A DNA stretch of 64,000 bases from Ostreococcus lucimarinus (Eukaryota): NCBI GenBank assembly GCA_000092065.1, contig CP000581.1; one strand, given 5' to 3'. Made by a program: the position numbers and the translations under genes. The stretch's first letter is position 1. Each line of letters starts with the position of its first letter. The notes under the pieces were generated by a model. The model was not told the origin of the DNA. It saw nothing but the letters and a program-made list of their open reading frames with translations, and did not search any database. Shown piece by piece: positions 740-937 of the stretch.

Positions 740-937
740 GCGCAGGCTGGACAAACGTCGATCGCGGTTTCTAGACTCATGGCGCTCGATTCGCTTGAAT
801 ACACAGAAAACAATTCGAGAGTCATGTTTTGATGCCCGACTCGGTTTGCAAAAATTCTCGAATTGTTTTCTGTGTATTCAAGCGAATCGAGCGCCGTGAG
901 TCTAGAAACCGCGATCGACGTTTGTCCAGCCTGCGCG
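740..937. repeat. Long inverted repeat / foldback hairpin (two ~82-bp arms, 1 mismatch, ~32-bp loop), AT-richer than surroundings
   Basis: Left arm cgcgcaggctggacaaacgtcgatcgcggtttctagactcatggcgctcgattcgcttgaatacacagaaaacaattcgag (c.740-822) is reverse-complement of right arm ctcgaattgttttctgtgtattcaagcgaatcgagcgccgtgagtctagaaaccgcgatcgacgtttgtccagcctgcgcg (c.856-937); both strands translate to the same peptide in the ORF track (LDKRRSRFLDS.RSIRLNTQKTIRE). Confidence 0.85.

What the first reader, a model, noticed from the sequence alone, without database searches (positions are those of the whole stretch)
740..937. Near-perfect 82-bp-arm hairpin (foldback) sitting in a bidirectional promoter
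Two 82-bp arms are reverse-complementary with a single mismatch and are separated by a ~32-bp loop. The element is AT-richer than the GC-rich flanks. It lies exactly between divergent ATGs at 636 (minus) and 1008 (plus). It could be a MITE-like foldback transposon insertion. It could instead be a cruciform-forming regulatory element shared by the two genes, or a source of a hairpin RNA. The single mismatch suggests recent origin or selection for pairing.
Basis: seen in the sequence. Interest (0 to 1): 0.6.

Follow-up and report, generated by a model that had tools for sequence, protein, structure and literature searches.

The report
Self-correcting DNA palindrome in algal promoter
A 199-bp near-perfect DNA palindrome sits between two back-to-back genes of the tiny marine alga Ostreococcus lucimarinus; it occurs at this one place only, is not a jumping gene, and its two arms stay mirror images while their sequence drifts, most likely because one arm is copied onto the other.

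Summary
The arms are 739-820 and 856-937 (82 nt, one T/G mismatch at 780/896) with a 35-nt spacer, lying between the divergent ATGs at 636 and 1008.

The window matches Ostreococcus lucimarinus CCE9901. The element is at the same locus in 31 near-identical wild contigs and, as an 80-nt-arm version with an 18-nt spacer, in a sister lineage. Three other Ostreococcus clades lack it.

No second copy was found in the window or in the JGI metagenome scan. There is no convincing target-site duplication. The host is reported to lack Dicer and Argonaute. So neither a MITE family nor an RNAi hairpin is supported.

Between the two lineages the arms differ at about 14% of sites, no less than the flanks (about 10%), yet they remain complementary. 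Nine pairs changed on both sides, and some multi-base changes are mirrored in both arms. The commonest wild haplotype has three mismatches. Three pairs show paired, mismatched and re-paired states.

Best reading: a clade-specific, single-copy palindrome whose arms are homogenised by template switching or arm-to-arm conversion, and which is probably near-neutral. A cruciform or promoter role is untested. Short-read assemblies can swap the arms, which weakens part of the population evidence.

The parts
739..820 (.). Left arm of the palindrome (82 nt)
   Evidence: It is conserved at the same locus in 31 window-type contigs and in the L014 sister lineage.
821..855 (.). Spacer (35 nt, 43% GC). It is the most variable part.
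   Evidence: Five polymorphic sites in 35 nt, and a 19-nt deletion plus 10/16 substitutions in L014. It has the same orientation in all trustworthy contigs; the inverted copy in L039 is an assembly chimera.
856..937 (.). Right arm of the palindrome (82 nt). G896 is the single mismatch, opposite T780.
1..636 (-). 5' part of the left divergent gene (237-aa protein with no Pfam family). Its ATG is at 636-634, 102 nt from the left arm.
   Evidence: It is 212/212 identical to XP_001415944.1 of O. lucimarinus CCE9901.
1008..1814 (+). Right divergent gene, a DUF4079 (plastid-type membrane) protein of 268 aa. Its ATG is 70 nt from the right arm.
710..737 (.). Promoter motifs just left of the palindrome: TTCAAAT (710-716) and CTGTCGTTCCCCTCGG (722-737). 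Recognisable versions are present in Ostreococcus clades that lack the palindrome.
   Evidence: Read by eye; coordinates.
937..969 (.). Promoter motifs just right of the palindrome: GTCGACG (937-943) and the CRE-like palindrome TGACGTCA (962-969; TGACGTC in the other clades).
   Evidence: Read by eye; coordinates.

Best explanation
The element is a single-copy long inverted repeat, specific to clade A of Ostreococcus. It lies in the core of the bidirectional promoter of two conserved neighbouring genes.

Shown: it replaced about 50 nt of ancestral promoter sequence before the O. lucimarinus-type and L014-type sublineages split. It has since persisted at this one locus.

Shown: the two arms accumulate substitutions at least as fast as the neighbouring non-coding DNA, yet they change together.

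Inferred: a mutation arising in one arm is either removed or copied in reverse complement onto the other arm. The likely route is intramolecular template switching during replication or repair (quasipalindrome correction), or mismatch correction within an extruded hairpin. This would keep the structure near-perfect without selection on individual base pairs.

The unpaired spacer is free to vary and is the most variable part.

The element is therefore best seen as a self-homogenising DNA palindrome that the promoter tolerates, and it is probably close to neutral. A by-product shown by the sequence is that both genes have the same 82-bp sequence at equivalent upstream positions: -71 to -152 from the DUF4079 ATG and -103 to -184 from the left gene's ATG. 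Whether that sequence, or a cruciform, affects expression is unknown.

It is not an active mobile-element family and not an RNAi precursor. How the first inverted duplication arose, by local template switch or by insertion of a foldback sequence, is unresolved.
For: Single locus:
- One copy in 64 kb.
- The JGI metagenome scan with a 20-mer conserved in both arm types returned only the orthologous locus (L005, L007, L013, L014) plus six unrelated chance 20-23-mers.
- Nothing was found in viral contigs.

Distribution:
- Present in 31 of 31 window-type contigs with the same 371-bp intergenic length.
- Present in L014, whose DUF4079 protein is 96% identical, with 80-nt arms and an 18-nt spacer.
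- Absent from three other Ostreococcus lineages whose proteins are 86-89% identical (L002, L025, L026/L027).

Concerted change:
- Window-type and L014 differ at 10/81 sites in the left arm and 13/82 in the right arm. L014's own arms nevertheless have only 5 mismatches.
- Nine pairs changed on both sides. None of 500 shuffles, and at most 1 pair in the slid controls, reached this.
- The multi-base change CGA to TCG (columns 49-51) is mirrored at columns 149-151.

No sequence constraint:
- Arms differ at 23/163 sites (14%), non-coding flanks at 16/154 (10%).

No strong selection on each pair:
- The commonest wild haplotype (14 of 31 contigs, including three contigs of about 1 Mb) has three mismatches: T.G, G/G and T/C. 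Haplotypes range from 0 to 5 mismatches.

Intermediates:
- Pairs 24/176, 33/167 and 53/147 each show a paired, a mismatched and a differently paired state. The chance of three such coincidences among 11 random arm polymorphisms is about 5e-5.

Mechanism in the literature:
- Template switching homogenises and expands inverted-repeat arms and can maintain hairpins (PMC8794818, PMC8604942, PMC13100816).
Against: - Covariation with unconstrained sequence is also what selection for a structure (cruciform or RNA stem) would give. The arguments against selection (rate, mismatched majority haplotype, mirrored multi-base changes) are indirect.
- The between-lineage comparison rests on essentially two lineages. 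L014 is one short-read contig, corroborated only in part: by L028 for the outer left arm and by L001 for the right arm.
- Short-read de Bruijn assemblies can swap or collapse the two arms. L039 is a demonstrable foldback chimera. Some 'compensated' population states (53/147 G:C in L013 and L034; 24/176 C:G in L037) could therefore be artefacts. Only the 33/167 G:C state is also seen in Flye-style contigs (L030, L032).
- Long palindromes are generally unstable in eukaryotes, so persistence in every contig sampled might itself indicate selection.
- The complete O. lucimarinus genome could not be searched, so diverged copies elsewhere are not excluded.
Confidence: 0.55

Rival explanations
1. It is a relic of a foldback or MITE-like transposon that inserted once in the clade-A ancestor and is now immobile. 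Its terminal inverted repeats make up nearly the whole element. This rival concerns origin and is compatible with later arm homogenisation.
For: - The size (199 bp), the arms that make up most of the element and the lower GC (50% against 65-68%) resemble MITE or foldback elements.
- The arm sequence has no detectable counterpart in the intergenic regions of the other clades (p > 0.2), whereas the flanking motifs are recognisable there.
- The flanks TCGGC and TCGAC match at 4 of 5 positions.
- The outermost CGCG is self-complementary and could be read as a 4-bp duplication.
Against: - No other copy in the window, in the JGI metagenomes that contain clade-A contigs or in viral contigs.
- The candidate duplication is imperfect, is not kept in L014 and is unremarkable in a CG-rich genome.
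- The clades without the element do not show a clean empty site. They carry about 50 nt of other sequence instead.
- Promoter cores in the other clades are also AT-rich, so lower GC does not discriminate.
Confidence: 0.2
2. It is a selected structural element. One version is a cruciform that absorbs the negative supercoiling generated between the two divergently transcribed genes, or that binds a structure-specific factor. Another is a stable RNA stem in a promoter-associated or 5'UTR transcript. In either case pairing is kept by natural selection.
For: - Position in the core of a bidirectional promoter.
- Present in every clade-A contig sampled, 31 window-type plus L014.
- Nine two-sided changes.
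- Very stable fold as DNA (-117 kcal/mol) or as RNA (-172 and -165 kcal/mol on the two strands).
- An AT-rich centre, which favours extrusion.
Against: - The arms evolve no more slowly than the flanks, which is unlike selected stems.
- The commonest haplotype carries three non-Watson-Crick positions, two of them not G-U.
- One mismatch in 82 pairs changes stability very little, so selection per pair should be too weak to drive the compensation observed.
- A 35-nt spacer disfavours cruciform extrusion (established knowledge, not tested here).
- A -170 kcal/mol stem in a 5'UTR would be expected to block scanning.
- The host lacks Dicer and Argonaute, and there is no Rfam family.
- Three other clades express the same gene pair without the element.
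Confidence: 0.2
3. It is an artefact of cloning or assembly in the reference sequence.
For: Palindromes are prone to assembly errors, and one metagenome contig (L039) is a foldback chimera at this very site.
Against: The same left flank, arm, spacer, arm and right flank architecture appears in 31 independent assemblies from many samples and assemblers. These include contigs of 0.57-1.13 Mb.
Confidence: 0.01

Closest known systems
Quasipalindromes and inverted repeats homogenised or expanded by replication template switching (Ripley-type quasipalindrome correction; Monttinen & Loytynoja 2022, PMC8794818; yeast IR studies PMC8604942 and PMC13100816)
   Same: The arms are kept complementary by changes that copy one arm onto the other. 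Multi-nucleotide changes are mirrored in both arms. Mismatched intermediates are present in the population. The location in a promoter matches the yeast GRE2 case.
   Different: To my knowledge the arms (82 bp) are several times longer than the inverted repeats usually attributed to short-range template switching. The element persists at the same locus in two sublineages. No spacer inversion was seen in trustworthy contigs. The switching itself is inferred, not observed.
MITEs and foldback (FB-type) DNA transposons
   Same: It is about 200 bp long, made almost entirely of long terminal inverted repeats, AT-richer than its surroundings, and lies next to gene starts.
   Different: It occurs at a single locus. 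No family members were found, there is no convincing target-site duplication, no clean empty site, and no presence/absence polymorphism among the 31 wild contigs.
Large genomic palindromes with arm-to-arm gene conversion (for example the ampliconic palindromes of primate sex chromosomes; from my own knowledge)
   Same: Two arms with a unique spacer. The arms evolve in concert and stay much more similar to each other than orthologous arms are between lineages.
   Different: The scale differs by a factor of 100 to 10,000 (82 bp against kb to Mb). The arms carry no genes. Conventional homologous recombination is inefficient on such short repeats, so a hairpin or template-switch route is more plausible.
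Inverted-repeat hairpin RNA loci and MIRNA precursors of plants and Chlamydomonas
   Same: A long, nearly perfect stem with a short loop that could give double-stranded RNA if transcribed.
   Different: O. lucimarinus is reported to lack Dicer and Argonaute (PMC4014436). No target-like copy of the arm sequence exists in the window. Transcription is unknown.

Membership tests
MITE / foldback transposon | Terminal inverted repeats | tested here: met
   82-nt arms, 81/82 complementary. This is trivially true of any palindrome.
MITE / foldback transposon | Multiple dispersed copies in the genome | tested here: not met
   One copy in the 64-kb window. The exact 20-mer scan of JGI metagenomes returned only the orthologous locus. 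Viral contigs gave nothing. Limits: exact-match search only, and the complete genome was not available, so old diverged copies are not excluded.
MITE / foldback transposon | Target-site duplication flanking the element | tested here: inconclusive
   The flanks are TCGGC (734-738) and TCGAC (938-942), matching at 4 of 5 positions. This is not kept in L014, which has a 3-nt deletion at the left edge. The outermost CGCG is self-complementary. In a CG-rich genome this is within chance.
MITE / foldback transposon | Presence/absence polymorphism with a clean empty site | tested here: not met
   All 31 window-type contigs and L014 carry the element. The clades without it have about 50 nt of different sequence at that place, not a joined empty site.
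Hairpin-RNA / miRNA-type small-RNA locus | Host has Dicer and Argonaute | tested here: not met
   From the literature only: O. tauri and O. lucimarinus lack both genes (PMC4014436). I did not search the genome myself.
Hairpin-RNA / miRNA-type small-RNA locus | The locus is transcribed across both arms and yields small RNAs | not testable with these tools
   No transcript or small-RNA data were available.
Known structured RNA families (Rfam 15) | Match to a covariance model | tested here: not met
   No match at gathering score in the whole window. In 1-3000 at E <= 1 there was only a chance hit outside the element.
Template-switch / arm-conversion-maintained inverted repeat (quasipalindrome) | Changes in one arm are mirrored as reverse complement in the other, including multi-base changes | tested here: met
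   Nine pairs changed on both sides (0 of 500 shuffles; slid controls 0-1). Columns 49-51 and 149-151 changed together.
Template-switch / arm-conversion-maintained inverted repeat (quasipalindrome) | Arms are not constrained in sequence; the substitution rate is about neutral while complementarity is kept | tested here: met
   Arms 23/163 against non-coding flanks 16/154 between the window type and L014. L014's own arms have 5 mismatches, where about 20 would be expected if the arms changed independently.
Template-switch / arm-conversion-maintained inverted repeat (quasipalindrome) | Mismatched intermediates and both resolved states segregate in the population | tested here: inconclusive
   This is seen at three pairs (chance about 5e-5). 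Two of the three resolved states occur only in short-read contigs, where arm swapping is possible (L039 chimera).
Template-switch / arm-conversion-maintained inverted repeat (quasipalindrome) | Direct observation of the switching or conversion event | not testable with these tools
   This needs mutation-accumulation lines or phased long reads.
Cruciform-forming regulatory element | Extrusion in vivo and an effect on transcription | not testable with these tools
   Only the thermodynamic potential was computed.

The most novel reading that the evidence does not exclude
The palindrome is a selected, structure-dependent control element of the bidirectional promoter. For example, it could be a cruciform that extrudes under the negative supercoiling produced by the two divergent transcription units and so couples or limits their expression. 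In that reading, arm-to-arm copying merely assists its upkeep. This would be a naturally evolved, long cruciform switch in one of the most compact eukaryotic genomes, in a host without RNAi.
Probability: 0.12. Interest if true: 0.6.

Novelty: new member of a known kind. Interest (0 to 1): 0.33.

Why it matters
If the reading is right, this locus is a clean natural example of a long palindrome keeping itself near-perfect without being a transposon or an RNA gene. One site shows mismatch intermediates and both repaired outcomes in wild populations of an abundant marine alga.

It is also a caution for covariation-based inference. Nine 'compensatory' pairs arose here in DNA that shows no other sign of constraint. 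Compensatory change alone therefore does not prove a functional RNA or DNA structure.

There is a practical point as well. The site breaks or misleads short-read assemblers (contig ends inside the element, one foldback chimera). Because Ostreococcus can be transformed, it could serve as a test bed for palindrome stability and template switching in a eukaryote.

It does not reveal a new kind of system.

Tried and rejected
- Exact look-up of the window's DUF4079 protein found nothing on record. Relatives were then reached through homologue searches.
- The viral-contig scans with the inner-arm and outer-arm 20-mers gave no hit.
- The bacterial and archaeal genome scan with the outer-arm 20-mer gave one 21-nt match in a Burkholderiales MAG. 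The similarity does not extend, and about one such match is expected by chance in 596 Gb.
- The six single-match loci from the metagenome scan (L006, L008-L012) are unrelated 20-23-mers.
- I concatenated six-frame peptides of the hairpin and searched the protein collection, hoping to catch spurious ORFs called on other copies. Nothing scored, not even the known orthologous ORFs, so the test is uninformative.
- Rfam and tRNA scans found nothing.
- Local alignment of arm plus spacer against the intergenic regions of the three clades without the element was no better than shuffles. The origin of the arm sequence therefore remains open.
- L001 at first looked like a third, highly diverged allele in window-type flanks. 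It turned out to be a mosaic of window-type and L014-type segments along 2.3 kb. It is either a recombinant or a strain-mixture assembly, so it was used only to corroborate the L014-type right arm.
- L039's 'inverted spacer' is a foldback assembly chimera, not a biological inversion.
- L029's diverged arm end looks like a low-quality contig end.
- The heat-shock-element-like TTCnnGAA at the inner arm ends, and the concentric (CGT)n/(ACG)n repeats, were judged low-complexity or chance and were not pursued.

Full report
**1. The observation**

The inverted repeat exists as described.
- The arms are 739-820 and 856-937, 82 nt each, 81/82 complementary, separated by 35 nt.
- The single mismatch is T780 opposite G896.
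- As single-stranded DNA the region folds at -117 kcal/mol, against -34 +/- 3 for shuffles (z = -28).
- As RNA either strand would fold at about -165 to -172 kcal/mol.
- No other inverted repeat in the 64 kb comes close. The rest are 70-84% complementary CG-rich low-complexity pairs.
- The element is 50% GC and the spacer 43%, in flanks of 65-68%.
- It lies 102 nt from the ATG of a minus-strand gene (CAT at 634-636) and 70 nt from the ATG at 1008 of a DUF4079 gene.

**2. Organism and context**

The left protein is 212/212 identical to XP_001415944.1 of Ostreococcus lucimarinus CCE9901. The window is therefore this picoalga or something indistinguishable from it.

The gene order is cohesin STAG-like, left gene, DUF4079, Sod_Cu-like, Ubiq_cyt_C_chap. 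This order is conserved in all Ostreococcus lineages recovered.

**3. Is it a repeat family?**

- Only one copy occurs in the window.
- I scanned the JGI metagenome contigs with a 20-mer that is conserved in both arm variants. Four loci had two inverted matches, and all of them are the orthologous locus. Six loci had single matches, and these are unrelated 20-23-mers in soil and other contigs.
- Two viral-contig scans were empty.
- A scan of bacterial and archaeal genomes gave one chance 21-mer.
- The flanking pentamers are TCGGC and TCGAC, an imperfect pair that is not preserved in the sister lineage.

There is thus no support for a multicopy MITE. This test cannot see old, diverged copies, and the full genome was not searchable.

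**4. Distribution**

Using the two flanking proteins I recovered the locus from many metagenomes.
- All 31 contigs of the window type carry the element in a 371-bp intergenic region. They are 98-99% identical over 600-1100. They include three contigs of 0.95-1.13 Mb and one of 0.57 Mb.
- A sister lineage, L014, carries a recognisably homologous palindrome. Its DUF4079 protein is 96% identical and its left protein 95%. Its arms are 80 nt, and its spacer is only 18 nt because of a 19-nt deletion.
- Three more distant Ostreococcus lineages (L002, L025, L026/L027; proteins 86-89% identical) have no palindrome.
- Those lineages share the flanking promoter motifs: TTCAAAT, CTGTCG..TCCCC, GTCGACG and TGACGTC. 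In place of the palindrome they carry about 50 nt that includes a small conserved dyad, GTAYGGGATTTCATAC.
- The arm sequence has no detectable similarity to those regions.

The element is therefore clade-specific and occurs at a single locus. It is older than the split of two sublineages, so it is not recent.

**5. How the arms evolve**

Between the window-type consensus and L014:
- The left arm differs at 10/81 sites and the right arm at 13/82.
- The non-coding flanks differ at 16/154.
- The spacer differs at 10/16 alignable sites plus the deletion.

The arms are thus not conserved in sequence. They change at least as fast as neighbouring non-coding DNA. Yet L014's own arms have only 5 mismatches, two of them at the very ends.

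On an alignment of 17 copies (10 distinct), 9 of the 82 pairs show a change on both sides. No shuffle out of 500 reached this, and the slid controls gave 0-1.

Some changes are multi-base and mirrored. CGA to TCG at columns 49-51 is matched by the complementary change at columns 149-151. One copying event explains this far more easily than several independent point mutations sieved by selection.

**6. Population picture**

- The commonest wild haplotype (14 of 31 contigs, including all the megabase-scale ones) has three non-Watson-Crick positions: 24/176 T.G, 33/167 G/G and 53/147 T/C.
- The reference-like window is a rarer allele with one mismatch.
- One contig (L016) is a perfect 82/82 palindrome. 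The range is 0-5 mismatches.
- Three pairs each show a series:
  - 24/176: T:A, then T.G, then C:G.
  - 53/147: T:A, then T/C, then G:C.
  - 33/167: C:G, then G/G, then G:C.
- With L014 as outgroup, T:A is ancestral for the first two pairs.
- Three such exact coincidences among about 11 arm polymorphisms have a chance probability of about 5e-5.

*Caveat.* L039 is a demonstrable foldback chimera: left flank, arm, reverse-complemented spacer, arm, reverse-complemented left flank. Several contigs also end inside the element (L001, L023, L028). Short-read assemblers can therefore swap or collapse the arms. Only the 33/167 G:C state is also present in contigs with Flye-style names (L030, L032). The population evidence is suggestive, not final.

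**7. Interpretation**

I take four facts together:
- the substitution rate in the arms is about neutral or higher;
- the spacer varies freely;
- multi-base changes are mirrored in both arms;
- the majority haplotype is mismatched.

The most economical mechanism is arm-to-arm copying, that is, replication or repair template switching, or mismatch correction in an extruded hairpin. This is the quasipalindrome-correction process described for bacteria, yeast and primates. It has been shown to homogenise and expand inverted repeats, including in promoters, and to maintain hairpins (PMC8794818, PMC8604942, PMC13100816).

Selection for pairing is the main rival. It predicts the same covariation. However, selected stems normally evolve more slowly than neutral sequence. 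One mismatch in an 82-bp stem barely changes stability, so selection per pair should be very weak.

An RNAi-type hairpin is unlikely, because O. lucimarinus is reported to lack Dicer and Argonaute (PMC4014436). No Rfam family matches.

Whether the first inverted duplication arose locally or by insertion of a foldback sequence cannot be decided with the outgroups available.

**8. Comparison with what is known**

- The element works like a quasipalindrome maintained by template switching, but its arms are unusually long.
- It looks like a MITE or foldback element. It fails the copy-number and empty-site criteria, and the target-site-duplication criterion is inconclusive.
- It resembles large sex-chromosome palindromes in its concerted arm evolution, at a scale 100 to 10,000 times smaller.
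- I found no paper describing this element or similar nuclear palindromes in Ostreococcus.

**9. Verdict**

This is a real, well-delimited, single-locus palindrome. It is a new instance of a known kind of sequence behaviour, not a new system. Interest is modest. It is useful as a natural example of palindrome self-maintenance, and as a warning that compensatory changes can arise without functional structure.

Noticed in passing
window 710-737 and 937-969; L002 2780-2950; L025 1380-1500; L026 1330-1450: The bidirectional promoter keeps recognisable motifs across Ostreococcus clades whose intergenic DNA otherwise barely aligns. These are TTCAAAT, CTGTCG(N)TCGTCCCCC, GTCGACG and a CRE-like TGACGTC(A). 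They are candidate transcription-factor sites. The palindrome sits between the second and third motif.
   Followed up: partly
L026 1399-1414; L025 1447-1462; L002 2841-2856: In the clades that lack the big palindrome, the same position holds a small conserved dyad, GTAYG-GGATTT-CATAC (5-bp stem). It may be an ancestral promoter element, or conceivably a seed for palindrome growth. No significant similarity to the arms was found.
   Followed up: partly
L039 1-404: This metagenome contig is a foldback chimera at the palindrome: left flank, arm, reverse-complemented spacer, arm, reverse-complemented left flank. Several other contigs (L001, L023, L028, L029) end inside or at the edge of the element. 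The site misleads short-read assemblers.
   Followed up: yes
L001 1-2308: This contig is a mosaic of window-type and L014-type blocks along 2.3 kb. It begins with 48 nt (TAATTAAGCCGTCTCGCGCGGACGAACGCTTAATGAAGCC...) that match nothing else fetched. It is either a true recombinant between the two sublineages with a different spacer, or a strain-mixture assembly.
   Followed up: partly
window columns 24/176 and 53/147 of the element (positions 762/914 and 791/885): In both series with an inferable ancestor, the direction is T:A to a mismatch to G:C or C:G, so the GC allele is the one copied. This would fit the GC-biased gene conversion reported for O. tauri (PMC5498103). With two cases it is only an anecdote.
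   Followed up: no
window 678-703 and 982-1007: A second, imperfect inverted repeat (26 nt, 85%) made of (CGT)n/(ACG)n lies almost concentric with the palindrome. Similar (CGT)n...(ACG)n pairs flank the promoter core in the other clades (L002, L026). It is probably low-complexity coincidence, since the right copy runs into the Thr/Met-rich start of DUF4079, but the whole promoter is loosely dyad-symmetric.
   Followed up: partly
window 50795-51362: A tandem array with a 45-nt unit (about 10.6 copies, 85% matches) and a nested 36-nt unit (3.6 copies, 98% matches). It lies in the most GC-rich part of the window (73% GC). It is probably a coding low-complexity repeat.
   Followed up: no
window 7353-7590: A 121-nt tandem duplication (2 copies, 92% matches), rich in CGATCG palindromes, within a region of many weak inverted repeats (7184-7766).
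   Followed up: no
window 1862-3232 (minus strand): The convergent neighbour of DUF4079 is a 457-aa protein with a weak Cu/Zn superoxide dismutase domain hit (Pfam Sod_Cu, E = 1.6e-7). It is conserved next to DUF4079 in all Ostreococcus lineages, only about 45 nt away tail-to-tail.
   Followed up: no
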